64,000 nt of DNA. Source: an uncultured Brachyspira sp. (GTDB taxonomy: Bacteria > Spirochaetota > JAAYUW01). The stretch is taken from assembly GCA_964581895.1 (NCBI GenBank), contig CAZOPR010000002.1, forward strand, positions 254,185 to 318,184, read 5' to 3'. This document shows positions 35,928 to 50,236 of the stretch, piece after piece. The translations under genes and the position numbers were made by a program. The notes beneath the pieces are model-generated. The model was given only the letters and a program-made list of their open reading frames with translations, ran no database searches and was not told the origin of the DNA. Within the stretch, counting starts at the first letter, position 1, and every line of letters begins with the position of its first letter.

Positions 35928-35952
35928 AACTTAAAATTTCTAAGAGGTAAAG

Positions 35953-37266
35953 ATGAAGAAAAAAATAAATAAAATACTTTTCATTCTCCTTTTAATAATT
36001 ATCATTGCTGCTATTAGTTTTTACTTTATTTATAAAAATAAGGTCGCAGCAAAAAAAAATATTGTTTTCACCACTGCTATAATCCAAAGTGGTAGCATCA
36101 CAAGTTCTGTAAGTGCATCTGGAAAGATAGAGCCAATCGATTCCTATCCTGTAATGGCTTCAATATCTGGTAAAATAGATAAGGTTCTTGTTGATTATAA
36201 TTCAAAAGTCAAAAAAGGGCAGATTTTAGCCATAATAAAACAGGATGATTATTTGTTTGCCTTGAAGCAGGCTCAGCTTAGTTACGATGAAGCAACTATA
36301 ACTTTATCAAATAAAGAGATGGATTATAATAATAATCTTGAACTTTATAAAAAAGGTTTTTTGACTTCTGCTGCACTAAAAGAATCTGAAAATAGTTATA
36401 AACTTGCACAGATAGCAGTTGAATCGGCTAAGGTTTCGCTTGAAAAGGCTAAAACAAATCTTGAAAATACATTATTAAAATCTCCAATAGATGGCTTCAT
36501 ACTTGAAAAAAATGTTGACGAAGGGGATTTTATAAGCACAAATATTTCTCAATCTGAACTTTTTGTAGTCTGTTCAGATCTTTCAAGACTGAAAATAACG
36601 GCAAATGTTGATGAATCAGATATTAGTCTTATAAAGGAAGGCCAAAAAGTCCAATTTACAGTTTTGGCTTATGATACAATGAGTTTTACAGGAGAAGTAA
36701 AACAGATAAGATTAAATTCAAATGAAAGCTCAAATGTTGTGACTTACACAGTTATAATAGAGACAAAAAATATAGATAATAAGCTACTTCCAGGGATGAC
36801 AGCTTCTATAGAATTTGTAAATCAACCAAGCGAGGGAGCATTTTTGGTTCCTCAAACATCAATATCACTAAAAGGTTTGGCGTTGCTTAAGAATATTGGA
36901 CCTTATACTGTTAATATCCCAAAAAATCAAGGGGTTAATCCTTCACAAAATCAAAATCCTTCACAAAATCAAAATCTTTTTAAAACACAAAATCCTTCTC
37001 AAAATCAAAATCCTACTCAAAATTTTAACAAAAGTTCTGATTCAAACCAACTTCAAAACAAGAATATAAAGATACTATGGGTTATAGATGAGACAAAAAA
37101 GATTGTATATCCAATTCCAGTAAAAACAGGAAATACAGATGGGAAAATGATTGAGGTCTTTTCTCCACTTTTGAAAGAAGGGATGAAAATAATTTCAAGC
37201 CTTATGACTAAAAATAAAACCAATAACCAGAACAATAATTTTGGCATGCCTCCAATTCGATTTTAG
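35953..37266 (+). CDS. Periplasmic adaptor (membrane fusion, HlyD/MacA-like) with C-terminal N/P/S/Q repeat
   Basis: N-terminal TM, coiled-coil hairpin, beta-barrel region; NPSQNQ tandem repeats near C-terminus. Confidence 0.7.
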   Translation: MKKKINKILFILLLIIIIAAISFYFIYKNKVAAKKNIVFTTAIIQSGSITSSVSASGKIEPIDSYPVMASISGKIDKVLVDYNSKVKKGQILAIIKQDDYLFALKQAQLSYDEATITLSNKEMDYNNNLELYKKGFLTSAALKESENSYKLAQIAVESAKVSLEKAKTNLENTLLKSPIDGFILEKNVDEGDFISTNISQSELFVVCSDLSRLKITANVDESDISLIKEGQKVQFTVLAYDTMSFTGEVKQIRLNSNESSNVVTYTVIIETKNIDNKLLPGMTASIEFVNQPSEGAFLVPQTSISLKGLALLKNIGPYTVNIPKNQGVNPSQNQNPSQNQNLFKTQNPSQNQNPTQNFNKSSDSNQLQNKNIKILWVIDETKKIVYPIPVKTGNTDGKMIEVFSPLLKEGMKIISSLMTKNKTNNQNNNFGMPPIRF

Positions 37267-37420
37267 GATTTTGGTTAATGTGATTTAATACTGAATTTAA
37301 TTTTTGATTTTGTAATTAATAAAGTTGTTATTTTTTTTGTTATTTGATTAAAATTAAATTTAATAAATTCTGTAATTTTTGCTTTAGGTAAAATTTTAGT
37401 ATAAAAATATAGGAAAATTG

Positions 37421-38143
37421 ATGGAAAATTCAAATAGTACTTTAATAGAAGTTATTGATTTAACAAAGATTTATGGTGTTGGTGATTCAAAAGTCATCGC
37501 ACTTGATGGAATAAACTTAAAAATATTTACTGGAGATTTTATCGCAATAATTGGTGCATCTGGTTCTGGTAAAAGCACATTTATGAATATTTTGGGAACA
37601 CTTGATATACCAACCTCAGGTAAATATCTATTTGAAAACATTAATGTTGAAAAGATGGATGATGATGAAAGAAGCTATATTAGATCGAAACATATAGGTT
37701 TTGTTTTTCAAAGTTTTAATCTTGTAAAGACATTAAATGCTGTCGAAAATGTTGAACTTCCTTTATTTTATATGAAAGATGAAAAGAAGGGAAATTTCAA
37801 TAAAAAAAGAGCTTTGATAAGAGAAAAAGCCATATCTATATTAAAAGATGTTGGACTTAGCAATAGGATTTATCATAGGACTAACCAGCTTTCAGGAGGT
37901 CAACAGCAGAGAATAGCGATAGCAAGGGCTCTTATAAATGACCCAGACCTTATTTTGGCTGATGAACCAACTGGAAATCTTGATTCAAAAACAAGTCTTG
38001 AGATTATGGAAATTTTTATCAATCTGCATAAAAATGGGAAAACTATTGTTCTTGTAACTCATGAACATGATATAGCCGCTTTTGCTAAAAAAATTGTTGA
38101 ATTTAAAGATGGGAAAATTATCGATATAAGAGAAAATATATGA
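37421..38143 (+). CDS. ABC transporter ATP-binding protein (MacB/LolD-like)
   Basis: Walker A GASGSGKST, signature LSGGQQQRIAIARAL, Walker B ILADEPTGNLD; ATG 37421 (track start 37418 is TTG). Confidence 0.85.
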   Translation: MENSNSTLIEVIDLTKIYGVGDSKVIALDGINLKIFTGDFIAIIGASGSGKSTFMNILGTLDIPTSGKYLFENINVEKMDDDERSYIRSKHIGFVFQSFNLVKTLNAVENVELPLFYMKDEKKGNFNKKRALIREKAISILKDVGLSNRIYHRTNQLSGGQQQRIAIARALINDPDLILADEPTGNLDSKTSLEIMEIFINLHKNGKTIVLVTHEHDIAAFAKKIVEFKDGKIIDIRENI

Positions 38144-39357
38144 GATTAGAAATTTTATTAAATTTTTCAGTTCGAAGTCTTTTACATAGCAAGCTTAGAA
38201 CATTTTTAACTATGCTTGGTATAATTATCGGTCTTGCTGCAATTGTAGTAATGGTAGCGATAGGACAAGGTGTTTCAAAACAGGTGCATGATCAGATCGC
38301 ATCTTTTGGGAACAACCTTTTAACTGTAATGCCAGCGCCACCTTCAAGTTCTGGAGCAAGGCAATCCACAAGCTCGGGTGTAAGATTAACGGAAGAGGAT
38401 TATTTAGCTATTAAACAAAGATCAAATTATTTAAAAGCTGTTTCTCCCTTAGTTCAAACAAGAGCTCAGGTTATAACATCTGGAGGGAACTGGAATACCA
38501 TGGTATATGGTGGAAGTACGGATTATCTTTCAATAAGAGACTGGCCTATTGAAAGTGGCAGAAATTTCACAAATGCCGAGGAAAAAGCAAAAGCAAAAGT
38601 TTGCATTATAGGAAAAACAATAGCAGAAGAGCTATTTGATGGAACAGATCCAGTAGGTTCTGAAATAAGAGTTGCAAGATTAAACCTGAAAATAATTGGG
38701 GTATTAAAGGAGAAAGGGACAAATTCTTTTGGGATGGATCAGGATGATTTAATAATAGTTCCTTATACAACATTACTCTATAGGTTAAGTAGGTTTAGAT
38801 ACATTCAACAGATACTTTGCTCTGCGATAAGTGAAGATCAGATAGATATTGCACAACAGGAAATTGAGCAGATAATGAGAGCCTCACATAGATTGGAGGA
38901 AGGAGAGGAAAATAATTTTAGAATATCAAATCAAGCCGATGTTCTTGAAGCATCTATGAATACCACAAGAACTTTGACGCTATTTTTAGCTATAGTTGCT
39001 GGGATTTCCCTTCTAGTAGGAGGCATCGGCATTATGAACATAATGCTTGTAAGTGTTGTTGAAAGGACAAAGGAGATAGGACTGCGAAGGGCAATAGGAG
39101 CAAAAAAAGTTGATATCCAGCAGCAATTTTTGATAGAAGCTCTTATCTTATGTTTGCTTGGAGGTATCATCGGAATATTCTTGGGTGTAGTAATTGTATT
39201 TTTATTGAAATTTGTTTCTACATTATCATTAGTGATTTCAGTAAATTCTATAATAATAGGTTTTGTTGTTTCTTTTGCAGTAGGTGTTTTTTTTGGGTAT
39301 TATCCTGCAAAAAAGGCTTCGGATATGAACCCTATAGATGCATTAAGATATGAATAA
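38140..39357 (+). CDS. ABC transporter permease (FtsX/MacB-type)
   Basis: N-terminal TM, large periplasmic domain, C-terminal 3 TM helices; ATGA overlap with ATPase gene. Confidence 0.8.
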   Translation: MRLEILLNFSVRSLLHSKLRTFLTMLGIIIGLAAIVVMVAIGQGVSKQVHDQIASFGNNLLTVMPAPPSSSGARQSTSSGVRLTEEDYLAIKQRSNYLKAVSPLVQTRAQVITSGGNWNTMVYGGSTDYLSIRDWPIESGRNFTNAEEKAKAKVCIIGKTIAEELFDGTDPVGSEIRVARLNLKIIGVLKEKGTNSFGMDQDDLIIVPYTTLLYRLSRFRYIQQILCSAISEDQIDIAQQEIEQIMRASHRLEEGEENNFRISNQADVLEASMNTTRTLTLFLAIVAGISLLVGGIGIMNIMLVSVVERTKEIGLRRAIGAKKVDIQQQFLIEALILCLLGGIIGIFLGVVIVFLLKFVSTLSLVISVNSIIIGFVVSFAVGVFFGYYPAKKASDMNPIDALRYE

Positions 39358-39439: not shown

Positions 39440-40264
39440 ATGGAAAAAATAAAATTTGCATTTTTGTTTTTCATTTTAGTTTTACCTTTATCTTTATTCT
39501 TTAATTTTGGGGCAAAAAATTTTTCAGATAATTTAATTTATGAAAGAAAAGTATATTTTTCAATCCAGTCATTTCAAAATGATAAGGCTTTTGAAAGGTA
39601 TTTAGGATTTTTGAAAAACAACAAGATAAGTGGAATAACATTTTATGGACTTCATAAAAAACTTGAGGTTAGTCCATCGGTAATTTTCGCAAAATTGAAA
39701 AATGAGATACCAGAAATTCAGATATTTATAGCAGGAGACAACTTTGATTTTTTCAATACTTTAAATGAAGATAAGAACTTGATGCAATATGTAGATGGAT
39801 TTCATATTGAGTATGAATACTGGAATTATTACAAATATAAGAAAAAAGATAGAAACGATGCTTTCAATTATTTTATAGAAGAATCAAAAAAAATTAAAAT
39901 TCTTACCAATGAAAATAAGAAAAAATTTGAAGCATATTTTGGATGGTTTAACGATGAAGAAGCAAAAAGTTTTTTACCTTTTTTTGATTCTATTTTACTT
40001 CATTCATACACGAATCAGATACAAAAAACAGGGCAATATATATTTGAAAGATTGTTGACTTTAAGTAAAATAGACTCCCAAATCCCCTGGTTTATACTAT
40101 GCTCAGCAGAAAAAGATTTTATGGAACAAACCTTAAAAGAGTACGGCCTATTTAATTTAGAAAAATTGATTCTTGAAAATATAAAACCAAGCTTTGATTA
40201 TTTAAAAAATTTTAAAGGATTTTACTGGTTTACTGGTGAGCTAGTCGAAAAAGCAATAAGATAG
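39440..40264 (+). CDS. Hypothetical secreted protein
   Basis: Signal peptide; no recognised domain. Confidence 0.3.
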   Translation: MEKIKFAFLFFILVLPLSLFFNFGAKNFSDNLIYERKVYFSIQSFQNDKAFERYLGFLKNNKISGITFYGLHKKLEVSPSVIFAKLKNEIPEIQIFIAGDNFDFFNTLNEDKNLMQYVDGFHIEYEYWNYYKYKKKDRNDAFNYFIEESKKIKILTNENKKKFEAYFGWFNDEEAKSFLPFFDSILLHSYTNQIQKTGQYIFERLLTLSKIDSQIPWFILCSAEKDFMEQTLKEYGLFNLEKLILENIKPSFDYLKNFKGFYWFTGELVEKAIR

Positions 40265-40333: not shown

Positions 40334-43075
40334 TTATCTTGTCTTAAATCCTTTCCTTTTCATCATTCCCCAGGAGCTTTTGCCTATAAGGTTATTGAAA
40401 TATGCTACTAATCTAAGAATATTCATTAACTGTCGATATCCGAAATTTTCAACAAGTCCAATAAGTATTAAAATTATATCTTCATACCAGGCAAAATATA
40501 TTACATTTTTTTCAGAAATTGCTAACGATAGGATAGATAAAACAATCCCAAGCAAGATGCTTGTCAAAAAAAGAAATAAAAATAAAGGTAAGGTAAAAAT
40601 CCCTAAAAATATTGCTAAGATAGAAAAGAAAAGTCCCATAACCTCATAAAAAGGTCCAAGAGTTTCAAAGATAAGATAATAAGGAAGGGCTACTACGCCA
40701 ACTCTGCCATAATTTTTATTAAAAATCATCTTTCTATGATATAAAAGGATTTCAATAAGTCCTCTTTGCCACCTATCTCTTTGTTTTTTAAGTATCTTAA
40801 AAGATTCTGGAACTTCAGTCCAGCAAGTGGCATTTATCGAATAGTTAACTGCTTTTTCCTCTTTATTTTCCAACGCATATCTTCTTAGTCTAACTATAAG
40901 TTCCATATCCTCGCCAACAGTATTTTGTCTGGCAGAAGTTCGAAATGTCATATATCCACCGATTTTTTGAACTGCTTTTCTTTCAAATACTCCAAAAGCA
41001 CCAGAAATAATGAGTAAAGATTTTATAAAAGCCCAGCCAAGTCTTCCAGTAAAATATGCCCTTAGGTATTCCATTGTTTGAAATTTTGCAAGTAGATTCT
41101 TGCCTATCCCTATTTTGATCAGTGAACCATTTTCAACTTCACAGCCATTTACTGGCATTATTTTTCCACCAGTTGCAATAATTTTTTCATCACTTTCTAT
41201 GATTGGTGAAATGGCATATAAAAGTGCATCCTGTTCTAAAAGACTATCCGCATCTATGCCACATATATACTCACCATTTGCTAAATTTATACCAGCATTT
41301 AATGAATCTGCTTTTCCACCATTCAATTTGTCAATGACAAAAAGATTTGAATGTAACCTGCTTTTATACACACCAATTATTGACGCTGTGCTTATATGTT
41401 GAGGCATAATTTTAAATGGAATTCTTTCAAGTTCAAAATTTTCTTTTAACACATTCAAAGTATTATCTGGTGATCCATCATTTACAACAATTACTTCGAA
41501 ACTCGGGTATTTAAGTGCAAGCAGGCTTCGAACATTTTGCACAATAGTTGCTTCTTCTCTAAAAGCAGGGACTATAACTGAAATTGAAGGTAAAACCCCT
41601 TTTTGGAAATAATTTAAGTATGAAATAGAATATTTTAGTTTATTTTGTCTTGATATTTCAAGATTTGCAAAAAATAAAAAAAGAATAGATATTGAATTTA
41701 ATGTTAAAGCATAGTATCCAAAAAACTTTATGTAAAAAACTATAAAAGATTTTAACCAGGGTAAAAATGGGAACAAACTTTCTTTTTTAATTAAACAAAA
41801 TATCAAAATTGGTGCTAAAAATAATGCTGCTGCAAGAGCAATAAGGAAAGGTCTATCCTTTTTAGAAGCTTCTGGTGCTTTTTGAGCTTCAACTTTTTTC
41901 TTTGGTGGGAAATTGTGTCTTTGGCATATTTCATCGTTAAGTGAAAAGGTAAATTCTTCAAATATTTTAATCCTTTTTTCATAATCAGGTTTCTTAAAAT
42001 TAACAATATCAAGAACCTGAACAATTTTTAATATTAAGATCTCCTCTATCTTTTTATCTTCATTACTATTTAAGTATGAGACTATGTTGTAGATTAACCC
42101 ATTTTTGATACAATACTCTAATAAATCATTTACCTTTTCATTCAAAAACCAATCTTTTATATCTAAAAAATAATATAGATAACTTTCAAGGATAAAAGCT
42201 AATTTATCTTTAATAGAAGTTTCACCTGTCTTAAAAAAAATTTCTATCAATTTATCCTTAAATTCATCGTTATTTTTAGTTGCATTTTCTAAAGCAGCCA
42301 AAGCATATTGTTCATTTTCTGGTTCACCCAAAAATTGCAAAATTCTATGGAAATTATCAACATTTTGAACCCTACCAAGAGCTTTAATGGCAAATTCTCT
42401 TATTTCATTATTTTTATGCCTTAAAAAAAATTGTGAATTAAGCATTGATGGAACAATATGATAGATAACACTTGCAGCCTCGGAAGAAAGATCCTTATCT
42501 TCTGACATTAATGATTCAACAAGTATTTTTTCAAGTGATGAAGATGGGAAATATATACATAGTCTAATCCCTATAATTGTTTCAGCCTTATTGTATGGAT
42601 ATCTTGAGGAAATAATATTGGCTGTAATATCAGGATATTCCTGTAAGATTGCAATATATTGAGTAAATCTACTTATGTTCCCACTTTCATACTCTTTAGC
42701 TGCACTATCCAGGATTAAAGGTATCAAATCGTAACTTTGAGAAAAAAGAAGGGATTCACAGATCTTAAATCTTATCGAACTGGACTTTTCAACTACTAAA
42801 AAACCAGAAAGAATCTGTACACCTTCAAAACCATAAAATCTCAAAGAAAATGCAGCATTTGCTCTTTTGATTTTGCTTTTTGACTTTATCTGATGGACAA
42901 GCTTCTTAAAAAGTCTCGATTTTTTTTGAGTGTAAAATTCTATATTTTTTAATTCTATAGGTAAAACTATTCTTTCACTGCATATATTTAAGGCTGTAAT
43001 TAAAAGAGATTCTGGGAATTTATTGAAGATATTTTTTTCTTTTTTTCTTAAAACTCTGTATATTTGTTTCGTCAA
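40334..43075 (-). CDS. Family-2 processive glycosyltransferase with N-terminal HEAT-like repeat region (polysaccharide synthase-like)
   Basis: GT2 motifs VIVPAFREE, VVNDGSPDNT, GIDADS, QRDRWQRG (QxxRW); TM segments flank the catalytic domain; TTG first codon immediately follows an in-frame TAA. Confidence 0.7.
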   Translation of the reverse strand: MTKQIYRVLRKKEKNIFNKFPESLLITALNICSERIVLPIELKNIEFYTQKKSRLFKKLVHQIKSKSKIKRANAAFSLRFYGFEGVQILSGFLVVEKSSSIRFKICESLLFSQSYDLIPLILDSAAKEYESGNISRFTQYIAILQEYPDITANIISSRYPYNKAETIIGIRLCIYFPSSSLEKILVESLMSEDKDLSSEAASVIYHIVPSMLNSQFFLRHKNNEIREFAIKALGRVQNVDNFHRILQFLGEPENEQYALAALENATKNNDEFKDKLIEIFFKTGETSIKDKLAFILESYLYYFLDIKDWFLNEKVNDLLEYCIKNGLIYNIVSYLNSNEDKKIEEILILKIVQVLDIVNFKKPDYEKRIKIFEEFTFSLNDEICQRHNFPPKKKVEAQKAPEASKKDRPFLIALAAALFLAPILIFCLIKKESLFPFLPWLKSFIVFYIKFFGYYALTLNSISILFLFFANLEISRQNKLKYSISYLNYFQKGVLPSISVIVPAFREEATIVQNVRSLLALKYPSFEVIVVNDGSPDNTLNVLKENFELERIPFKIMPQHISTASIIGVYKSRLHSNLFVIDKLNGGKADSLNAGINLANGEYICGIDADSLLEQDALLYAISPIIESDEKIIATGGKIMPVNGCEVENGSLIKIGIGKNLLAKFQTMEYLRAYFTGRLGWAFIKSLLIISGAFGVFERKAVQKIGGYMTFRTSARQNTVGEDMELIVRLRRYALENKEEKAVNYSINATCWTEVPESFKILKKQRDRWQRGLIEILLYHRKMIFNKNYGRVGVVALPYYLIFETLGPFYEVMGLFFSILAIFLGIFTLPLFLFLFLTSILLGIVLSILSLAISEKNVIYFAWYEDIILILIGLVENFGYRQLMNILRLVAYFNNLIGKSSWGMMKRKGFKTR

Positions 43076-43280
43076 TTATTATAATTTCATCTTCTTTTGG
43101 CTCTTTATTTACATATTCATATGCAATATTAGCTATTTTTTTTACAAGAATATTGATTGTTTTAGTTTTTCTCTTTTCTTTATATTTAATATAGAAAAGG
43201 GATAAAATAGATAAAATAATGAGAAAGCTAATAAAATATATTGAAATAAATAATATATTTAGCGAATTAAATATTTTCAT
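43020..43280 (-). CDS. Small membrane ORF, possibly the true N-terminus of the GT2 synthase separated by a frame break in an A7-G-A7 tract
   Basis: N-terminal TM helix; 56-nt overlap with GT2 ORF in +1 frame across 43032-43046. Confidence 0.35.
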   Translation of the reverse strand: MKIFNSLNILFISIYFISFLIILSILSLFYIKYKEKRKTKTINILVKKIANIAYEYVNKEPKEDEIIIIDETNIQSFKKKRKKYLQ

Positions 43281-43287
43281 ATTTTTC

Positions 43288-44235
43288 TTAAATACTTGAA
43301 CTTATAAAAATTCTTATAATTGAGAGAAGTTCATTTATAAAATATGGCTTTTTTATGAAATAATTTATCCCTAATAAAGATGCTGTTTTAAGTAGATCAT
43401 CATTTTTTTGGGTGCTTAATATTATCAAAGGGATATTTATATCCTCTTCTAAAAGTTTTTGTCTTAAATCAAAGCCTCCATATCCAGGGGCTGCAAGTTC
43501 GGAAATAATGCATATTGGATGAGAACTTTTTAATTTTTCGTAGGCAAGTTTACCATCTCTAAACCAGACACAATTTATCTTGTTTTGTCTTAAAATATCT
43601 ATAACTATAGCTGCATTAAAAGGATCTGGTTCGACAAGGAAAATTTCAGGAGTTTCATAAATTTCTGAAGCATTTGCCAATATTACCTTCGAGTTTGTAT
43701 CAGGTTTTTGTTCTGAAAACAAGTTATTAAATTTACTTAAAAAATGTTCCCTAATCGACTTCCCTTCTTCAATATTTAATAGACAATTTTGAACTGAAAA
43801 AATATAAATATTTGATTCTAAAAAAGAAGATAAAATAGATTGATTTAATTCATAAATAAAAAGATTAGATTTTGCCTTTATTTCAGATATAGAGTCTGCA
43901 AATGAAAATAATATAATACCACTATTATAAAAAAAAATTGGAGAAAAAGGGATTAGTGTATTAAAAATTATTGTATTAAGCTCATTTTTTATTTCATTAA
44001 CATTAATTTTATGATCTGTTTTGTTTACTAAAAAGATATACAAAAGATATACATCTATTTCATATTCATCAATCAGTCGAATAAGATGCTCTAAAAAATT
44101 GAAATTATCTAAAAAAGTAAGAAATTTATTTTTATCATTTACTAAAAATTTTTTATCAAGTTCATATTTTATGATATTTTCTTTCAATCTTTGATTTTCT
44201 TTTTCAAGTTGAAAAATATTTTTTTGTTTTCTCAT
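43288..44235 (-). CDS. Receiver-like domain protein with Glu at the phospho-acceptor position and N-terminal coiled coil
   Basis: C-terminal REC-like layout IFLVEPDP ... ICIISELAAPGYGGFDL ... PLIILST ... FIKKP. Confidence 0.5.
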   Translation of the reverse strand: MRKQKNIFQLEKENQRLKENIIKYELDKKFLVNDKNKFLTFLDNFNFLEHLIRLIDEYEIDVYLLYIFLVNKTDHKINVNEIKNELNTIIFNTLIPFSPIFFYNSGIILFSFADSISEIKAKSNLFIYELNQSILSSFLESNIYIFSVQNCLLNIEEGKSIREHFLSKFNNLFSEQKPDTNSKVILANASEIYETPEIFLVEPDPFNAAIVIDILRQNKINCVWFRDGKLAYEKLKSSHPICIISELAAPGYGGFDLRQKLLEEDINIPLIILSTQKNDDLLKTASLLGINYFIKKPYFINELLSIIRIFISSSI

Positions 44236-44375
44236 AATTACGACATTTTCTAAGATTTTCGGTTTTTATATTAATCTTTTAATTTTATCGCTACTTAATA
44301 TTGGTAGCTCATGAAACTTTAAGTAAAATATAAAAAATATAAATTTTAATGTAAGATATATTTTAATCTTTTTAG

Positions 44376-45098
44376 CTATAATTTTACAACTAAGGCAAAA
44401 CCAATATCCAAAAATCCAGCTTTATTGAAAAAATAAGGTTGAAAATAAGCGCCAACTGAAAAAATCGGGAAATTGAATTTAATACCAATTAAACAGGACA
44501 AATTAAAAAGGCTTTGCTCTATAGCAAAACTTACCCCTAAATCCATTCCAAAAATCTGAAAGAAAGCAAGATAAGATTTCATCCATAGTGCATAGGAGAT
44601 ACCTTTACCAGTTTCGTAACCGATAGCAGAATTTACAAAAAAGTTATAACCATTTGGGAAATTATAAATCGAGTAAATATAGCTAATAGAAGAGAAAAAA
44701 TCAGGGCTAAATTTCAGTATTTGTCTGAAGGCGAGATACCATTCATTTTTCTCAAAGTTGACACTTAATAAAATTTCATGCCTATCTATTTTATCTGTAA
44801 AATAAAAACCATACATAAAGTCGATATACCAACTTTTAGGGAAGATAAATGTCCCACCAAGCATTATTTTATAACCAGTATCACTTTCATAATAATATGA
44901 ATAACCAAAAAGAGCAGATAAAGCAAAAAAATTCGAGATTGGAAAAGATAAAGATTGATTTAATCTTCATTGAGAAAGGTTAGAATCATCTAAGCTCATA
45001 TCAAATTCAGTTGAAATCCAGATTTTTGGGGAAGCAAAAAGTGGAAGACTAAAAAAACATAGTACGATAAATAATATAAATAATTTTCTATTTTTCAT
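44376..45098 (-). pseudogene. Outer-membrane beta-barrel-like gene interrupted by in-frame TGA (minus-strand codon at 44967-44969)
   Basis: Signal peptide ORF MKNRKLFILFIVLCFFSLPLFASP... is in the same frame as the 162-aa ORF starting at 44864; single TGA between them. Confidence 0.45.
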
Positions 45099-45223
45099 AG
45101 CAAGAATATAATAAAAATAAGCTTATTTGTCAACTTTAGAAGTTTAAAAACTTTATTAATTCTTCATTAAAGTTTTTAACAGTAAAAGTCAAAATTTATC
45201 TTATTTGTTTCATTTATAGATTT

Positions 45224-45260
45224 AATAAAAAACCAAGCCTGTCAAGATAACAGGCTTGGT
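45224..45260 (-). terminator. Rho-independent terminator downstream of tRNA-Pro
   Basis: 9-10 bp stem ccaagcctg / caggcttgg with 9-nt loop, followed on the minus strand by T6. Confidence 0.55.
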
Positions 45261-45286
45261 AAAAGGAGGTAAATTATGAAAAAAAG

Positions 45287-45359
45287 TCGGAAAGAGGAGA
45301 TTTGAACTCCTGACCCCATGGTCCCGAACCATGTGCGCTACCATCTGCGCTACTTTCCG
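45287..45359 (-). tRNA. tRNA-Pro (anticodon CGG)
   Basis: 73-nt cloverleaf: acceptor CGGAAAG/CTTTCCG, D-arm GCGC-AGATGGTA-GCGC, anticodon arm CATGG-TTCGGGA-CCATG, T-arm AGGAG-TTCAAAT-CTCCT; CCA not encoded. Confidence 0.85.
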
Positions 45360-45568: not shown

Positions 45569-47545
45569 TTATTTTTTTGTTAGTAGTTTTATCTTATCTC
45601 GAAGCACTGCTGCTTCCTCAAATTCCCACTTTTTAGCAGCTTCCATCATTTGATTTGTCAAAATTTTAATCAATTTTTCTTTTTCTTTTGGATTTAATAT
45701 ATTGTATTTTTTTATCAAAAGATCATAGGCAAGACTTGCGCCTTCTTCTTTTGCCTTTTCCTCTCTTTCGATAAATGTTTTAACCTCTTTTTTTATACTG
45801 GCAGGCACTATATTGTTCTTTTCATTGAACTGGATTTGTATCTGTCGCCTTTTTCTTGTAAGCTCTATAGCCTGCTTCATCGAATCTGAGATTTCATCGG
45901 CATACATTATTATCGTTCCATTGACATTTCTCGCCGCCCTACCCATCATCTGTATTAAAGATTTTTCTGAACGTAAAAACCCGACTTTATCTGCATCTAA
46001 TATTGCGACAAGAGTAACTTCGGGTAGATCCAACCCTTCCCTTAAAAGGTTGATACCAACCAGTATTTTATATTCACCTTTTCTAAATCTGGTAATGATA
46101 TCTATTCTATCGAGAGAGTCAATTTCTGAGTGAAGATAGGCAGCAGGGTATCTTTGCTTTTCAAGATAATCAGCCAGGTCTTCAGCATTTTTTTTGGTTA
46201 AAACAAGTGCCAAAATCCTTTCATCATTAGCAAGTCTTTTATCTATTTCAGCTATTAAATCCTTAACCTGGTTTTCTGCTGGGCGAACAATTATTTCAGG
46301 GTCTAAAAGTCCTGTTGGCCTTATCCATTGTTCGACAACAACACTTGAACTTGTTTCATATTCAGAAGGTGTTGCACTTACAAATAAGACCTTGTTAAAA
46401 TATTTTTCTACTTCTTCAAAACGAAGTGGTCTATGGTCATAGGCAGAAGGAAGTCGAAAACCATAATCGATAAGCGCTTTCTTTCGCGATAGATCTCCAC
46501 CATACATGGCATGAAGTTGAGGAATTGTAACATGTGATTCATCGATAACTATAAGAAAATCTTTTGGGAAGTAGTCAAGCAAAGTTGCAGGCGGTTGCCC
46601 TGGGAGCCTTCCACTAAAATGTCTGCTATAATTTTCAATCCCTTTTACAAAGCCTACCTCATTTATCATCTCTATATCATAAGAGGTTCTTGATAAAAGT
46701 CTTTCTGCTTCAAGGTTTTTCCCCATTTCTTTAAGCTGCCTATATCTATCATTAAGTTCATTTTCTATGGAAATTAGTGCTCTTTTTCTTTCGTCAAGGT
46801 TTGTGACAAAATGCTTTGCCGGATAGATGGTGAATTGTTCTACTTCTGAAATCAAATCTGTAGTAACCGAATGAATAAGCAAAAGCTTTTCGATATTATC
46901 TTGAAAAAATATAATTCTTAAAGCATGCTCGGTATAAGCAGGGAAGATATCTACAATATCCCCTTTGATTCTAAATTTTCCAGGGGTAAATTCTATATCA
47001 GATCTTTCATAAAATATTGCGACAAGAAGCGAGGTAAGCTGTTCTATAGGCATTTGTTCATTTACCTTTAATGGTATTCTCTGATTTTTATATTCATCAG
47101 GATTTCCTATACCATAGATACAGCTTACCGTAGCCACTACTATTACATCATTTCTTGATAAAAGTGCTTCTGTCGCTTTGAGTCGGAGTCGCTCAATCTC
47201 TTCGTTTATATCGGAGTCCTTTTCTATATAGAGATCTCTTGTTGGTAAATATGCTTCTGGTTGATAATAATCAAAGTAAGATACAAAATATTCAACTGCA
47301 TTTTCAGGAAAAAAAGAGTGAAGTTCGCTATAAAGTTGACCAGCTAAAGTTTTGTTATGAGATATCACAAGAGTTGGAAGTTGAAGTTTTTCAATGATAT
47401 GAGCAACCGTAAATGTTTTGCCAGAGCCAGTTACCCCGTGCAAAGTAACTCTTTGTTTACCACTTTTAAAAGCTAAAGTTATCCTTTCTATTGCTTGTGG
47501 CTGATCTCCCGCTGGTGAAAAATTTGAATGAATCTTAAATCTCAT
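45569..47545 (-). CDS. uvrB: Excinuclease ABC subunit B
   Basis: Walker A GVTGSGKTFT, helicase motifs, C-terminal UvrB/UvrC interaction region EEAAVLRDKIKLL. Confidence 0.95.
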   Translation of the reverse strand: MRFKIHSNFSPAGDQPQAIERITLAFKSGKQRVTLHGVTGSGKTFTVAHIIEKLQLPTLVISHNKTLAGQLYSELHSFFPENAVEYFVSYFDYYQPEAYLPTRDLYIEKDSDINEEIERLRLKATEALLSRNDVIVVATVSCIYGIGNPDEYKNQRIPLKVNEQMPIEQLTSLLVAIFYERSDIEFTPGKFRIKGDIVDIFPAYTEHALRIIFFQDNIEKLLLIHSVTTDLISEVEQFTIYPAKHFVTNLDERKRALISIENELNDRYRQLKEMGKNLEAERLLSRTSYDIEMINEVGFVKGIENYSRHFSGRLPGQPPATLLDYFPKDFLIVIDESHVTIPQLHAMYGGDLSRKKALIDYGFRLPSAYDHRPLRFEEVEKYFNKVLFVSATPSEYETSSSVVVEQWIRPTGLLDPEIIVRPAENQVKDLIAEIDKRLANDERILALVLTKKNAEDLADYLEKQRYPAAYLHSEIDSLDRIDIITRFRKGEYKILVGINLLREGLDLPEVTLVAILDADKVGFLRSEKSLIQMMGRAARNVNGTIIMYADEISDSMKQAIELTRKRRQIQIQFNEKNNIVPASIKKEVKTFIEREEKAKEEGASLAYDLLIKKYNILNPKEKEKLIKILTNQMMEAAKKWEFEEAAVLRDKIKLLTKK

Positions 47546-47714: not shown

Positions 47715-48887
47715 TCATTCAAAAATCAACTCGACATTTCCCATATTTACATCAAGATTAACTTTCAATAAATTTTTTTCATCAATTTTATTTTGATCAG
47801 AATTTAGCTCAAAATCACTAGAAAAGCTGTGAGTCTGTCCTTGATATCTTATTTTAACACTTGCAGCATTTGTTTTTGATTTAACAAAAAAGTTGGGGCA
47901 GTTTTTCACCTGGAAAATAGAATTCGTCATATTTGATTTGTAATTAAAAGATGAAGGAAAATTTGTAAAGTTTTCAGATATTATTGTATAATTTCCAGCG
48001 TTTTCTTTAATGCCGATAGTTGAAGAGATATCTAACTTTTTTGCATTCAAAACAGAATTTGAGGCATTAAAGTCAAAAGATAAATTTTCTGTTTTTAGTA
48101 GGTTTGTAGAAATTTCTGATTTTGAAGCATTTAACTTATAAGAAAATGAGTTTTTTGCAATAATTTGCTCACTTTCAAACGAATTTTCTGATGCAGAAAA
48201 ATTCAGCTGAATCTGGTTTGAAGTTAAATTTAATATTTTTTCGCTAATATCGCTTGCATTAGCATCCATTTCAAAAAGATTTGAAATATCAATCTTTTCT
48301 GATGCAATCTGAATATTTGATGCATTTGACTCAAATTTTAGGTTTGAATACTTCGTTGGAAGAATAATAAATGCAAAAAGATACATTTCATCATCAAAAT
48401 TATAGTCTTTTTTTGAAAGATTTTCTAAAATTTCAAGTTTATCAGAAGTAAAAATAACTGGATTATCAATCCCCGATATTTTGGTGTAAAATTTATAAGA
48501 AATTTTTGGTTTTTCTTTATCTGAAAAGATTAAAACAGCCTTTGTCAGGTTAAGTGTAAGATTAAAATCTTTAATAACATTTTCAAGGCTTAGCTCATTT
48601 TTTTCTGATATAGGAAAACTTGTTGAGCTTTTAATAAAAGAATCTGCCTCCTGGAAAAACTGATCTTCGATAGCATTTAAGTTATTTAAATCATTTAAAT
48701 TAACTTGGAAGCTTGCAGCATTCTTAAAATTATCAATATTATGGTAAAAAGGTCTGATACTATGAGGAATGAACTTAAAACCAGTATCTTTACTATCTAA
48801 ATATGCCTTTGCAACAAAAAGTAAGACAAGACCAATAATTAAAATGACAGCAAGGAATATCCCTAAAATTCTTGTGCTATTTTTCAT
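47715..48887 (-). CDS. Membrane-anchored protein with repetitive Asn/Ser-rich beta-strand-like C-terminal repeats
   Basis: N-terminal TM; repeated units such as NASNIQIASEKIDIS, ANASDISEKILNLTS, DFNASNSVLNAKKLDIS; ATG 48887 has GGAG upstream (track start 48899). Confidence 0.35.
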   Translation of the reverse strand: MKNSTRILGIFLAVILIIGLVLLFVAKAYLDSKDTGFKFIPHSIRPFYHNIDNFKNAASFQVNLNDLNNLNAIEDQFFQEADSFIKSSTSFPISEKNELSLENVIKDFNLTLNLTKAVLIFSDKEKPKISYKFYTKISGIDNPVIFTSDKLEILENLSKKDYNFDDEMYLFAFIILPTKYSNLKFESNASNIQIASEKIDISNLFEMDANASDISEKILNLTSNQIQLNFSASENSFESEQIIAKNSFSYKLNASKSEISTNLLKTENLSFDFNASNSVLNAKKLDISSTIGIKENAGNYTIISENFTNFPSSFNYKSNMTNSIFQVKNCPNFFVKSKTNAASVKIRYQGQTHSFSSDFELNSDQNKIDEKNLLKVNLDVNMGNVELIFE

Positions 48888-49015
48888 TTTCATCTCCATT
48901 TAATTTTATTCTTAACTTTTTATTATCAATTTTTTTCATAAAATTTTTGATATTATCATTTTTTTATAGAATGTTCAATATTATCAATTTTTTTCATCGT
49001 CAATACTGTTAATTT

Positions 49016-49420
49016 TTAATTTTTTTCTTTATTTAATTTTTCATTTTCAATACTGTTATTTTTCAAATTTTCTTCATTTATAAAGCTTATAAGTTCATCA
49101 ACTGTAATACTTAAAATCTTCATTTTCTTTATAATATCTGGTATCTCATTTTTAATGAATTCTTCTTTTTTTATTTTTAATATTTTGTTATATGAATCTT
49201 TACTTAAAAAATAACCTATTCCTCTTTTATTATAAATAACGCCCAGATCCAGACATTCACTAAATGCTTTGGCTACGGTGTTTGGGTTTACTTCAAGATC
49301 AAATGCAAGTTCTCTAATAGATGGGATTCTTTCTTCTTCTTTCCATTTTTTTTGCAAGATTAAATCGAAGATCAATTCTATGATCTGTAAATAAATAGGT
49401 TTTGTTTCATCAAATCTCAT
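49016..49420 (-). CDS. GntR-family transcriptional regulator
   Basis: Winged-HTH segment RIPSIRELAFDLEVNPNTVAKAF. Confidence 0.7.
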   Translation of the reverse strand: MRFDETKPIYLQIIELIFDLILQKKWKEEERIPSIRELAFDLEVNPNTVAKAFSECLDLGVIYNKRGIGYFLSKDSYNKILKIKKEEFIKNEIPDIIKKMKILSITVDELISFINEENLKNNSIENEKLNKEKN

Positions 49421-49423
49421 TAA

Positions 49424-50236
49424 TTATTCTCCTTTTACATCATACTCTACTATTCTTAAATATGTCAGAAAATAGAAGAAGAAAGAAAGAAGGAATTTTA
49501 TAATTTCGCCAAGTAAAGTGTAATTTATCTCTTTTAATCCTAATCTTGATAGAGTATCTGAAAGATTGAGTGAAAATTGCATTGACATATTATTAAAGAA
49601 TAGCAAAAATACTGATGTATATATCAAAAAAAAGGCGAAGAATATTGCAAGTATAGTTAATATTGTGAGTAGAAAACTATTTTTTTTGAAATATGTCGAA
49701 CCAAGCATAAAGATAGAAGTGATAAAAAAGTATGAAGAAATTATTTTATAGTTAAAAAGAGATAATATCGCATCTAATGGATAAGTTCTTCGCAAAAAAG
49801 CAAAAATAAAAATATTATTAACTAAGAAAGCGATGATAGTAAATAATATACTTAAAAGAAGATAAAAGAAAAAATAGTAAAGCCAGATACTCAAAAATTT
49901 TTCAAAGATTGTTACTGGAACCATAAAAAATTGTGTTGCTTTTTCTTCCTGATGAAGATGCTTAAAACTATTTGAAGCCATAATGCAACCAATAAATAAA
50001 GAAATTATTAGATAAAAATTAAGGTTGATAGAATTAGTTATCATTATAGAACTGGCAATAAAAATCTTTTTAATAAAAATAGTAAATAAAATACCAAAGA
50101 TAAAAATTAAGTTTACAACTAAAGGCGCTATAAAAATTTGTTTACCATATAAATTAAAATCAAGTTTCAATAAAGATAGAAAATTCTTAGTTTTCGAATT
50201 TTCGTAAATTCTAAGTTTTTTATCTATTTCTGTCAT
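49424..50236 (-). CDS. Multi-pass membrane protein, probable ABC-2 type permease
   Basis: Six predicted hydrophobic segments; sits between ABC ATPase and GntR regulator. Confidence 0.4.
   Translation of the reverse strand: MTEIDKKLRIYENSKTKNFLSLLKLDFNLYGKQIFIAPLVVNLIFIFGILFTIFIKKIFIASSIMITNSINLNFYLIISLFIGCIMASNSFKHLHQEEKATQFFMVPVTIFEKFLSIWLYYFFFYLLLSILFTIIAFLVNNIFIFAFLRRTYPLDAILSLFNYKIISSYFFITSIFMLGSTYFKKNSFLLTILTILAIFFAFFLIYTSVFLLFFNNMSMQFSLNLSDTLSRLGLKEINYTLLGEIIKFLLSFFFYFLTYLRIVEYDVKGE

What the first reader, a model, noticed from the sequence alone, without database searches (positions are those of the whole stretch)
40334..45098. Candidate receiver-regulated polysaccharide synthase module: beta-barrel, Glu-substituted receiver, HEAT-GT2 synthase
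Four co-directional minus-strand genes sit within 7-140 bp of each other. They encode a signal-peptide beta-barrel-like protein (45098-44376), a protein whose C-terminal receiver fold has Glu where the phospho-acceptor Asp should be (ICIISELAAPG, with the Thr/Ser and Lys positions conserved), a small TM ORF, and a 913-aa protein joining an N-terminal HEAT-like repeat region to a processive GT2 domain with QRDRW. A Glu at the acceptor position is a classic phosphomimetic, which would make the regulator signal-independent. A HEAT-repeat N-terminus on a processive GT2 synthase is not an architecture I recognise from cellulose, PNAG, alginate or hyaluronan synthases. Together this looks like a minimal synthase-dependent exopolysaccharide system with an unusual regulatory input.
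Basis: partly seen in the sequence, partly recalled or inferred. Interest (0 to 1): 0.75.

Follow-up and report, generated by a model that had tools for sequence, protein, structure and literature searches.

The report
Broken HEAT-domain polysaccharide synthase operon
This is a three-gene sugar-polymer export module of an Exilispira-like spirochete, whose membrane synthase pairs with a catalytically dead signalling protein; the pair occurs in many anaerobes but I found no description of it, and this copy carries two disabling mutations.

Summary
QRDRW is present, Pfam finds a receiver fold, and Glu sits at the phospho-acceptor position. The gene count and gene integrity are wrong.

- **One gene, not two.** The "small TM ORF" and the 913-aa ORF are a single 984-aa gene. 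It is split here by loss of one 8-bp unit of a (GAAAAAAA)x3 repeat.
- **Barrel gene interrupted.** It has TGG->TGA at codon 44, and the genome uses the standard code.
- **Lesions reproducible.** Both recur in a second assembly that is 99.98% identical.
- **The 315-aa protein** is a coiled coil, a degenerate GGDEF fold and a pseudo-receiver.

The synthase (TM helix, ARM/HEAT solenoid, PgaC/IcaA-like GT2) has relatives in 480 species genomes. A partner gene lies directly upstream in about 60 of 64 loci. That partner is usually ODP di-iron sensor + GGDEF without GG[DE]EF + receiver, with Glu at the acceptor in 70 of 77 receiver matches. Receiver-synthase fusions occur in both orientations.

So the Glu is an ancient family trait, not a local phosphomimetic mutation. 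Exilispira has a reduced form without ODP, plus a clade-specific putative outer-membrane barrel. Eight literature searches found no description.

Verdict: a new variant of synthase-dependent exopolysaccharide systems, probably inactive or phase-off in this strain.

The parts
45105..45133 (-). Promoter-like site TTGACA-17-TATATT (11 of 12 matches), directly upstream of the barrel gene ATG at 45098. Probable operon promoter.
   Evidence: consensus scan; sequence checked. This is a consensus match only, and function is inferred.
44376..45098 (-). Gene for a 240-aa secreted, putative outer-membrane beta-barrel protein. It is interrupted here by a nonsense codon. Only a 162-aa ORF without a signal peptide (44376-44864) remains open.
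   Evidence: Intact orthologues of 240 and 241 aa exist in L001 and L008. The N-terminus is hydrophobic. One orthologue matches PF13505 OMP_b-brl weakly, E 7.6e-4. No PDB sequence match.
44967..44969 (-). In-frame TGA at codon 44 of the barrel gene. Relatives have TGG (Trp).
   Evidence: The genome uses the standard code. The same TGA is present in the independent contig L086.
43288..44235 (-). Intact 315-aa partner protein: N-terminal coiled coil, degenerate GGDEF-fold domain and C-terminal pseudo-receiver.
43666..44148 (-). Degenerate GGDEF-like (nucleotidyl-cyclase fold) domain, residues about 30-190. NSGII stands in place of GG[DE]EF, and there is no RxxD I-site.
43291..43650 (-). Pseudo-receiver (REC) domain, residues 196-315.
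43498..43500 (-). Codon for Glu246, which occupies the phospho-acceptor position of the receiver fold.
   Evidence: Glu is found at this column in 70 of 77 receiver matches in the fetched loci; nearly all of these are the partner gene next to a HEAT-GT2 synthase.
43020..43280 (-). 5' fragment of the synthase gene. It encodes the N-terminal TM helix and a juxtamembrane helix, then runs out of frame after the repeat tract and stops at 43020.
   Evidence: It aligns with residues 1-83 of the 984-aa orthologues.
43032..43047 (-). (GAAAAAAA)x2 tract. The closest intact relative has x3, and loss of one 8-bp unit shifts the frame.
   Evidence: The tract is identical in L086.
40334..43075 (-). 3' fragment of the synthase gene (the 913-aa ORF). 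It holds the ARM/HEAT solenoid, two TM helices, the GT2 catalytic domain and the C-terminal TM bundle.
41909..43021 (-). Cytoplasmic ARM/HEAT-like alpha-solenoid, residues about 19-389 of the 913-aa ORF.
   Evidence: The AF2 model of orthologue P0002 has pLDDT 80-90 over residues 90-460. Foldseek top hits are designed ARM proteins, alphaRep, importin-alpha and Kap121. Pfam HEAT_2 scores 25.6 bits here, below the 27.7 cutoff, but 46.9 and 39.3 bits in relatives P0056 and P0051.
40571..41581 (-). GT2 catalytic domain. Motifs: VNDGSPD (41465-41485), GIDADS (41243-41260), GEDME (40901-40915), QRDRW (40769-40783).
39440..40264 (+). Convergent 274-aa gene with an N-terminal hydrophobic segment. It is kept next to the synthase in the Exilispira clade and may be an accessory factor. 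Its family is unknown.
   Evidence: Synteny in L001, L006, L008 and L086. No Pfam or PDB match. That it belongs to the module is inference only.

Best explanation
**What it is.** The region holds one operon of three genes, read from a near-consensus promoter at 45133-45105:
1. a small secreted protein, probably an outer-membrane beta-barrel that lets the polymer out;
2. a cytoplasmic adaptor made of a coiled coil, a catalytically dead GGDEF fold and a receiver fold with Glu in place of the phosphorylatable Asp;
3. a 984-aa inner-membrane synthase made of an N-terminal TM helix, a cytoplasmic ARM/HEAT solenoid and a PgaC/IcaA-like processive GT2 with its own TM channel.

**Family context.** Genes 2 and 3 are the Exilispira version of a widespread, apparently undescribed two-gene module. 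In most lineages the adaptor also carries an N-terminal ODP di-iron (O2/Fe-sensing) domain.

**Proposed mechanism (inferred, not shown).**
- The synthase polymerises a UDP-sugar into a beta-linked homopolymer and translocates it. GlcNAc is most likely because PgaC/IcaA is the nearest family, but this is not established.
- Its activity is set by direct protein-protein contact between the adaptor and the cytoplasmic part of the synthase, most plausibly the HEAT solenoid.
- The adaptor can neither make c-di-GMP nor be phosphorylated on the canonical Asp. It therefore acts as a conformational relay. In most lineages the relay runs from the ODP sensor. In Exilispira it is constitutive or responds to an unknown ligand.

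**State in this strain.** The module is disabled or switched off. An 8-bp repeat-unit deletion splits the synthase, and a TGG->TGA nonsense mutation truncates the barrel protein.
For: **Shown**
- Gene structure and both lesions. Both are reproduced in a second assembly.
- Intact 240/315/984-aa versions lie in the same order in L001 and L008.
- The other roughly ten genes shared with L001 have the same or nearly the same lengths. The damage is therefore confined to this module.
- The adaptor contains a GGDEF fold and a REC fold. Glu246, Ser274 and Lys296 are invariant.
- Family-wide, 480 loci encode a relative of the synthase. The partner lies directly upstream on the same strand in 60 of 64 loci with enough sequence, and 53 of those 60 partners carry ODP.
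- Glu is at the acceptor in 70 of 77 receiver matches. None of 71 GGDEF domains has GG[DE]EF, and I saw no RxxD I-site motif in the alignment.
- The HEAT region is found almost only in proteins of GT2-synthase length.
- Physical coupling is supported by gene fusions. P0006 joins partner residues 79-310 to the synthase from about residue 24, replacing TM1. P0036 and P0051 carry a C-terminal receiver domain.
- The catalytic D, DxD, ED and QxxRW residues are invariant. PgaC_IcaA is the best family for all 18 relatives, at E 1e-34 to 1e-38.

**Inferred**
- The contact surface, the direction of regulation, the polymer, the export role of the barrel and the loss of function.
Against: - No experiment or complex model supports REC-HEAT docking. 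Structure-prediction jobs were exhausted, so no multimer prediction was run.
- The polymer is unknown. Scores lie far below the PgaC/IcaA cutoff, and no deacetylase was seen among the genes examined near the module in this window.
- The beta-barrel assignment rests on a signal-peptide-like N-terminus and one weak Pfam match. In the L002 lineage the same gene lacks its signal-peptide region yet remains well conserved. That does not fit a simple porin role.
- Loss of function is not proven. The 913-aa fragment keeps every domain except TM1, and the P0006 lineage lacks TM1 naturally. A +1 ribosomal slip, or a one-base transcript deletion in the A7 run, would restore the frame (my reading of the sequence). 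TGA is a leaky stop.
- The two assemblies with identical lesions might derive from the same reads.
Confidence: 0.62

Rival explanations
1. Contingency (phase-variable) locus. The 8-bp repeat tract switches synthase expression on (3 units) and off (2 units) by slipped-strand mispairing. The strain sampled here is in the OFF phase rather than permanently inactivated.
For: The repeat unit is not a multiple of three. It lies inside the ORF, and the copy number differs between close relatives: x3 in L001, x2 in the window and L086. Surface polysaccharide genes are classic phase-variable targets (established knowledge).
Against: Only 2-3 units are present, whereas typical contingency tracts are longer. 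The more distant relative L008 has an imperfect tract. A second, non-reversible-looking lesion (a nonsense point mutation) sits in the same operon. Two assemblies show the same state. No read-level heterogeneity could be examined.
Confidence: 0.13
2. The operon is functional as it stands. The 913-aa TM1-less protein is translated from the TTG at 43075, or through frame restoration at the A7 runs. The 162-aa C-terminal barrel ORF, or a TGA read-through product, suffices.
For: The P0006 lineage has a natural synthase without TM1, seen on at least 10 contigs. The same lineage keeps only the 162-aa-equivalent part of the barrel gene, at 63% identity. The partner gene and the promoter-like site are intact.
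Against: The TTG lies 56 nt inside the upstream ORF, with no obvious well-spaced Shine-Dalgarno sequence (my reading). A barrel protein without a signal peptide cannot reach the outer membrane. The closest relatives, L001 and L008, keep full-length genes.
Confidence: 0.12
3. The adaptor is a nucleotide second-messenger receptor rather than a constitutive relay. It would bind c-di-GMP or GTP through the pseudo-receiver or the degenerate GGDEF domain, as PelD, YdaK, PssE, FimX and the Caulobacter pseudo-receivers do. This is a variant of the main mechanism, not an alternative identity.
For: Degenerate GGDEF domains and pseudo-receivers are known c-di-GMP or GTP sensors (PMC10333796 section 11; PMC8846402 Table 5). 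ODP-bearing relatives keep the N and GD residues that contact guanine in active cyclases (my reading of the alignment). The acidic pocket, the Ser and the Lys of the receiver are conserved.
Against: I saw no RxxD I-site motif in the alignment of family members. The Exilispira GGDEF-like domain has also lost the guanine-contacting residues. No c-di-GMP-binding motif was identified in the receiver. No binding test is possible with these tools.
Confidence: 0.2
4. The two lesions are sequencing or assembly artefacts, and the real genome carries an intact three-gene operon.
For: The window comes from metagenome-derived data. Homopolymer-rich A/T sequence is error-prone.
Against: Loss of a whole 8-bp unit and a G->A substitution are not typical homopolymer errors. 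Both recur in a separately assembled JGI contig that differs elsewhere by one mismatch and one gap. Neighbouring genes are intact.
Confidence: 0.07

Closest known systems
PgaABCD (E. coli) and IcaADBC (staphylococci) poly-beta-1,6-GlcNAc systems
   Same: Both use a membrane-embedded processive GT2 with D, DxD, ED and QxxRW motifs, and PgaC_IcaA is the best-scoring curated family. In the Gram-negative version an outer-membrane barrel lies in the same operon. Control is post-translational, acting on the synthase.
   Different: The score is about 120 bits against a cutoff of 422. No PgaD/IcaD small subunit is present, because the 86-aa ORF is the synthase's own N-terminus. No PgaB/IcaB deacetylase and no TPR-porin were seen. 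A 450-residue HEAT solenoid and an N-terminal TM helix are added. The regulator is a pseudo-GGDEF/pseudo-REC protein, not c-di-GMP bound at the PgaC-PgaD interface.
NfrB-NfrA-DgcJ of E. coli (PMC8669469)
   Same: Both have a GT2 exopolysaccharide synthase with an extra cytoplasmic regulatory domain. Each has a dedicated GGDEF-family partner acting locally by direct contact, and an outer-membrane component encoded alongside.
   Different: NfrB senses c-di-GMP through a C-terminal MshEN domain, and DgcJ is an active cyclase. Here the extra domain is an N-terminal HEAT solenoid and the GGDEF partner lacks the catalytic motif.
Degenerate-GGDEF receptors of exopolysaccharide machines: PelD (Pseudomonas), YdaK (Bacillus subtilis), PssE (Listeria; PMC4125290)
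   Same: Each is a catalytically inactive GGDEF-fold protein encoded next to, and controlling, a polysaccharide synthase.
   Different: Those proteins bind c-di-GMP at a retained RxxD I-site and are membrane-anchored. This family shows no I-site in my reading of the alignment, is soluble, and carries a C-terminal pseudo-receiver, usually with an N-terminal ODP sensor.
Pseudo-receivers: plant pseudo-response regulators with Glu at the acceptor (my knowledge), and the Caulobacter c-di-GMP-binding pseudo-receivers (PMC10333796)
   Same: All have a receiver fold that has lost the phosphorylatable Asp but keeps the rest of the switch residues. It is used as an interaction or ligand-binding module.
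   Different: The domain context differs (GGDEF-REC order, ODP sensor, synthase partner). No ligand or kinase relationship is known.
Treponema denticola ODP oxygen-binding di-iron protein of the chemotaxis system (cited in PMC7666581)
   Same: The same Pfam family, PF19583, forms the N-terminal domain of most partner proteins in this module.
   Different: In T. denticola ODP signals to a chemoreceptor. Here it is fused to pseudo-GGDEF and pseudo-REC beside a synthase. The Exilispira copy in this window has lost it.

Membership tests
PgaC/IcaA PNAG synthase (NCBIfam TIGR03937) | Whole-protein score at or above the curated cutoff of 422.3 bits | tested here: not met
   122.6 bits for the window protein. 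The scores are 117.1 bits for L001 and E down to 2.4e-38 across 18 relatives.
PgaC/IcaA PNAG synthase (NCBIfam TIGR03937) | Processive GT2 catalytic motifs: D, DxD, (T/G)ED, Q(R/Q)xRW | tested here: met
   VNDGSPD, GIDADS, GEDME and QRDRW are present and invariant in alignment A6.
PgaC/IcaA PNAG synthase (NCBIfam TIGR03937) | Small membrane co-subunit (PgaD/IcaD), a polysaccharide deacetylase (PgaB/IcaB) and, in Gram-negatives, a TPR-porin (PgaA) in the operon | tested here: not met
   The 86-aa TM ORF is the synthase N-terminus. No Polysacc_deac_1 or TPR hit was found among the six proteins of and around the module that were scanned. The barrel protein is only 240 aa.
Two-component response regulator receiver (Pfam PF00072) | Receiver fold and profile match | tested here: met
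Two-component response regulator receiver (Pfam PF00072) | Phospho-acceptor Asp at the end of beta3 | tested here: not met
   Glu246 is invariant in 9 orthologues and occupies this position in 70 of 77 family receiver matches.
Two-component response regulator receiver (Pfam PF00072) | Cognate histidine kinase | tested here: inconclusive
   No kinase was seen among the ORFs listed between 36 and 50 kb, nor in the conserved neighbourhood clusters. The rest of the genome was not available.
GGDEF diguanylate cyclase (Pfam PF00990) | GGDEF-domain fold | tested here: met
GGDEF diguanylate cyclase (Pfam PF00990) | GG[DE]EF active-site motif | tested here: not met
   0 of 71 partner proteins have it. 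The window protein has NSGII, and others have for example RGPSF, HGATF or QGFTF.
c-di-GMP I-site receptor (PelD/YdaK/PssE type) | RxxD motif five residues upstream of the GGDEF position | tested here: not met
   Reading the alignment by eye: PFSP in the window protein, and NDNH or ESNM in the relatives I checked.
HEAT/ARM repeat alpha-solenoid (Pfam PF13646 HEAT_2) | Profile match above cutoff, or a solenoid of paired helices | tested here: met
   The window protein scores 25.6 bits, just under the 27.7 cutoff. Relatives score 46.9 and 39.3 bits. The AF2 solenoid is confident, and Foldseek best hits are ARM/HEAT proteins at E 1.5e-4 and weaker.
Outer-membrane beta-barrel (Pfam PF13505 OMP_b-brl) | Signal peptide plus a beta-barrel profile or fold | tested here: inconclusive
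   The N-terminus is hydrophobic with an LFA|SP-like cleavage site. One of five orthologues matches PF13505 at E 7.6e-4.
Phase-variable contingency locus | Intragenic tandem repeat with a unit not divisible by three, copy number varying between close relatives, and heterogeneity within populations | tested here: inconclusive
   The unit length and the between-strain difference are met. There are only 2-3 copies, and population heterogeneity cannot be tested without reads.

The most novel reading that the evidence does not exclude
The window exposes a large, undescribed class of synthase-dependent exopolysaccharide systems found mainly in anaerobes: Spirochaetota, Bacillota, Thermotogota, Fibrobacterota and others. 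In this class an O2/iron-sensing ODP di-iron domain controls a PgaC-like synthase directly, without c-di-GMP and without phosphotransfer. The signal passes through a fossilised GGDEF-receiver pair that docks on a HEAT solenoid of the synthase. This would be an oxygen-triggered protective matrix switch. The Exilispira form is a stripped-down, sensor-less derivative.
Probability: 0.3. Interest if true: 0.78.

Novelty: new variant of a known kind. Interest (0 to 1): 0.58.

Why it matters
- Known bacterial synthase-dependent polysaccharide systems (cellulose, PNAG, alginate, Pel, Nfr) are switched on by c-di-GMP binding.
- Here the regulatory partner keeps the folds of a diguanylate cyclase and of a response regulator but has lost the chemistry of both, in nearly every member examined. 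It is also tied to a synthase that carries a large protein-interaction solenoid.
- If the partner works as proposed, it shows how signalling enzymes become pure adaptors. In the ODP-bearing majority it would also link oxygen or iron sensing to matrix production in anaerobes.
- For annotation: the 86-aa and 913-aa ORFs should be merged as one disrupted gene, and the barrel gene should be flagged as a pseudogene. The IMG name 'CheY-like chemotaxis protein' for the partner is misleading.

Tried and rejected
- **Alternative genetic code** (TGA = Trp or Gly) as the reason for the in-frame TGA. Rejected: TGA ends 12 of 47 ORFs, and all 97 Trp codons are TGG.
- **The 86-aa ORF as a PgaD/IcaD-like small subunit.** Rejected: it aligns with the N-terminus of the 984-aa orthologues.
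- **Romboutsia mixed-linkage glucan synthase RiGT2** as a characterised relative. Rejected: it is a 637-aa BcsA-like enzyme with a PilZ domain.
- **Profile search of the 5.8-billion-protein index with the synthase alignment.** It gave almost nothing new, because only 8000 word-sharing candidates were scored.
- **PDB sequence searches.** Those for the synthase found only generic GT2 N-terminal matches, and those for the barrel and the 274-aa neighbour found nothing.
- **Pfam and NCBIfam** on the barrel, the 274-aa protein and the roughly 1055-aa conserved neighbour of distant loci gave no informative family.
- **The full-length AF2 model.** It is poor for the GT2 and TM part (pLDDT below 50) because the alignment has only 7 sequences, so I drew no structural conclusion about the channel.
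- **Rfam.** It found no riboswitch, only tRNA-Pro.
- **Literature.** Eight full-text searches found no paper on this architecture. The library lacks most subscription journals, so absence is not proof.

Full report
**Organism and setting**

The window has about 27% G+C. The closest named homologues of the genes in question come from Exilispira sp. metagenome-assembled genomes, so the source is an Exilispira-like spirochete. The region lies between uvrB (45569-47545) with a tRNA-Pro and its terminator (45286-45359 and 45232-45260) and a convergent MacAB/OEP-type efflux operon (34620-39357).

**Checking the observation**

Two things were missed.

- **Nonsense codon in the barrel gene.** The frame 45098-44376 has a TGA at codon 44 (44967-44969). 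The 92%-identical relative L001 has TGG there and encodes an intact 240-aa protein. The genome uses the standard code: 12 of 47 long ORFs end in TGA, and all 97 Trp codons in them are TGG. This is a genuine nonsense codon. The surviving 162-aa ORF lacks the signal peptide.
- **One synthase gene, split.** The 86-aa 'small TM ORF' and the 913-aa ORF overlap by 56 nt. Together they match single proteins of 984-985 aa in relatives. The DNA alignment shows the cause. L001 has GAAAAAAA three times, whereas the window has it twice at 43032-43047, which shifts the frame.

A JGI metagenome contig (L086) was assembled separately. It differs from the window by one mismatch and one gap in 10 kb and carries both lesions. 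The other genes shared with L001 have matching or nearly matching lengths, and the window as a whole is densely filled with long ORFs. The locus is therefore three genes, and two of them are broken.

**The partner protein (43288-44235)**

- Pfam finds a receiver domain at residues 198-307.
- In nine orthologues the acceptor position is always Glu. The beta1 acidic residues (E-P-D), Ser274 and Lys296-Pro297 are invariant.
- An AF2 model (mean pLDDT 73, and 80-90 for residues 10-170) shows a long N-terminal helix. A beta-alpha-alpha-beta-beta-alpha-beta domain follows, and then the receiver.
- The protein is therefore a coiled coil, a GGDEF-like domain and a receiver-like domain. NSGII stands where GG[DE]EF should be, and PFSP where the RxxD I-site would be.

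**The synthase**

- The reconstructed protein starts with a TM helix, followed by a confidently modelled alpha-solenoid of about 370 residues. The model was built on the 87%-identical intact orthologue P0002.
- The best structural matches of the solenoid are designed armadillo proteins, alphaRep, importin-alpha and Kap121.
- Two TM helices, a GT2 domain and a C-terminal TM bundle follow. The GT2/TM part of the model is unreliable because the alignment was shallow.
- The catalytic D, DxD, ED and QxxRW residues are invariant across 18 diverse relatives.
- PgaC_IcaA is the best curated family for all 18, but at about 120-130 bits against a cutoff of 422.
- Sequence search of the PDB matches only the generic GT2 nucleotide-binding part.
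- This is a distinct clade of PgaC/IcaA/NodC-like processive synthases. The polymer cannot be named from these data.

**Relatives elsewhere**

- **Spread.** A scan of one genome per species found 480 loci that encode a relative of the synthase. The 80 best come from Spirochaetota, Bacillota (Acetobacterium, Clostridium, Heliophilum, Veillonellaceae, Pelotomaculum), Thermotogota, Fibrobacterota and others.
- **HEAT region.** Searching 1.84 billion representative proteins with the HEAT region alone gave 67 clusters. Nearly all are 930-1020 aa, so this solenoid occurs essentially only on this synthase.
- **Adjacent partner.** In 60 of 64 loci with enough upstream sequence, the gene directly upstream on the same strand matches the Exilispira receiver profile. 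One of the remaining four has the partner fused to the synthase, and in two more a receiver match near the synthase start escaped my distance filter.
- **Partner architecture.** These partners are about 670 aa. Pfam assigns ODP (PF19583, a di-iron beta-lactamase-fold family), GGDEF and Response_reg. 53 of the 60 carry ODP.
- **Glu at the acceptor.** Across the 77 receiver matches, the acceptor column is Glu in 70, the T87 position is Ser in 72, and the K109 position is Lys in 71. The single Asp belongs to an unrelated response regulator on the opposite strand.
- **Dead cyclase.** None of 71 GGDEF domains contains GG[DE]EF, and I saw no RxxD motif at the I-site position in the alignment.
- **Fusions.** In P0006, partner residues 79-310 are joined to the synthase from about residue 24, so the first TM helix is replaced. 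P0036 and P0051 carry a receiver domain at the synthase C-terminus.
- **A third component.** A protein of about 1055 aa with an N-terminal TM segment and no Pfam match lies next to the synthase in 36 loci. It is fused to the synthase C-terminus in P0056, P0058 and Heliophilum. It is absent from the Exilispira clade.
- **Exilispira-specific genes.** That clade has the small barrel gene and a conserved 274-aa secreted protein of unknown family.

**How it most likely works**

The following is shown:
- the domain composition;
- the loss of the cyclase motif and of the acceptor Asp;
- the near-obligate adjacency of partner and synthase;
- the fusions.

The following is inferred. The partner controls the synthase by direct contact, most plausibly with the HEAT solenoid, because that solenoid is the family-specific cytoplasmic addition. 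The partner can neither synthesise c-di-GMP nor accept a phosphoryl group on the canonical residue, so it should act as a conformational relay. In most lineages the input would be the ODP domain. A member of that family is an O2/Fe sensor in Treponema denticola chemotaxis (cited in PMC7666581). Most carriers appear from their names to be anaerobes (my knowledge), which suggests oxygen-triggered matrix synthesis.

The Exilispira partner has lost ODP, and its GGDEF-like domain is the most eroded. It may be constitutive or may respond to something else. That is an inference. The trait is ancient, not local.

Nucleotide binding by the pseudo-receiver or the GGDEF-like domain remains possible. Pseudo-receivers and degenerate GGDEF domains do this in other systems (PMC10333796; PMC8846402).

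**State of the operon in this strain**

A near-consensus promoter precedes the barrel gene, and the partner gene is intact. The synthase is split and the barrel protein is truncated. The simplest reading is recent inactivation.

Three caveats apply:
1. The 913-aa fragment retains everything except TM1, and the P0006 lineage lacks TM1 naturally.
2. A +1 slip, or a one-base transcript deletion in the first A7 run, would restore the frame with a three-residue loss (my reading).
3. The tract length differs between close relatives, so phase variation cannot be excluded, although two or three units is few.

**Comparison with known systems, and novelty**

- The nearest enzyme family is PgaC/IcaA, but the membership tests fail: the score is too low, there is no PgaD/IcaD and there is no deacetylase.
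- The nearest regulatory logic is NfrB-DgcJ (PMC8669469) and the degenerate-GGDEF receptors PelD, YdaK and PssE. Those depend on c-di-GMP and an I-site, which I did not find here.
- Eight literature searches found no description of the HEAT-GT2 plus ODP/pseudo-GGDEF/pseudo-REC pair. A 2022 census of sensors in c-di-GMP networks does not use the term ODP or list an ODP-type di-iron sensor in its oxygen/redox sensor table. The library is incomplete, so this is absence of evidence only.
- I class the finding as a new variant of a known kind of system. The copy in this window is a reduced and damaged example of it.

Noticed in passing
window 45286-45359 and 45232-45260 (minus strand): A tRNA-Pro(CGG) gene is followed by a strong terminator-like hairpin (13 pairs, then a T-run). 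It separates uvrB from the polysaccharide operon and marks the operon's upstream boundary.
   Followed up: partly
window 34620-39357 (plus strand): A MacAB-type efflux operon: OEP 435 aa, membrane-fusion protein 437 aa, ABC ATPase 241 aa and MacB-type permease 405 aa. It is syntenic with the module in all Exilispira-clade loci. The membrane-fusion protein contains a Q/N/P-rich low-complexity insert (NPSQNQNPSQNQN...). In the near-identical contig L086 the permease gene is called at 381 aa instead of 405, and the single gap between the two assemblies may account for this.
   Followed up: no
window 39440-40264 (plus strand): A 274-aa protein with an N-terminal hydrophobic segment and a strongly conserved HIEYEYWNYYKYKKKDRNDAF stretch. 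It is convergent with the synthase and kept there throughout the Exilispira clade. It has no Pfam, NCBIfam or PDB match, and could be an accessory enzyme of the module.
   Followed up: partly
L042 10151-13324, L016 10127-13342, L039 2433-5690; fused in P0056, P0058 and L015 7764-11900: A protein of about 1055 aa with an N-terminal TM segment and no Pfam match lies next to the HEAT-GT2 synthase in 36 of 82 loci. In some genomes it is fused to the synthase C-terminus. It is a third conserved, uncharacterised component of the wider system and is absent from Exilispira.
   Followed up: partly
L002 6650-8100 (also L003-L005): This concerns the lineage at 57% identity. The barrel gene has lost its signal-peptide region, yet the 162-aa remainder is 63% identical to L001. 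The coiled-coil start of the partner is a separate 52-aa ORF. The rest of the partner is fused in frame to the synthase (P0006, 1185 aa, on at least 10 contigs). It is unclear whether this is a functional rearrangement or a decaying locus.
   Followed up: partly
L007 and L008 (records DYJT01000037.1 and CAYVTU010000001.1): Two MAGs are labelled Brachyspira murdochii and 'uncultured Brachyspira sp.'. They carry this locus in full synteny, with 65-78% protein identity to the Exilispira sequences. This suggests the taxonomic labels of these bins are doubtful.
   Followed up: no
L025 4388-5089, L010 12072-13859, P0016: Genes near the synthase hint at the polymer, but differ between lineages. Acetobacterium-type loci have a GH16 hydrolase upstream. 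Some spirochete loci have a weak polysaccharide-deacetylase match. A distant GT2 relative (26% identity) is fused to a deacetylase and GH18. No consistent picture of the sugar emerges.
   Followed up: partly
window 47715-50236 (minus strand): A GntR-family regulator (134 aa) lies next to a 270-aa multi-TM protein and a 394-aa secreted or anchored protein with no family match. The arrangement is conserved in L001 and L008 upstream of uvrB.
   Followed up: no
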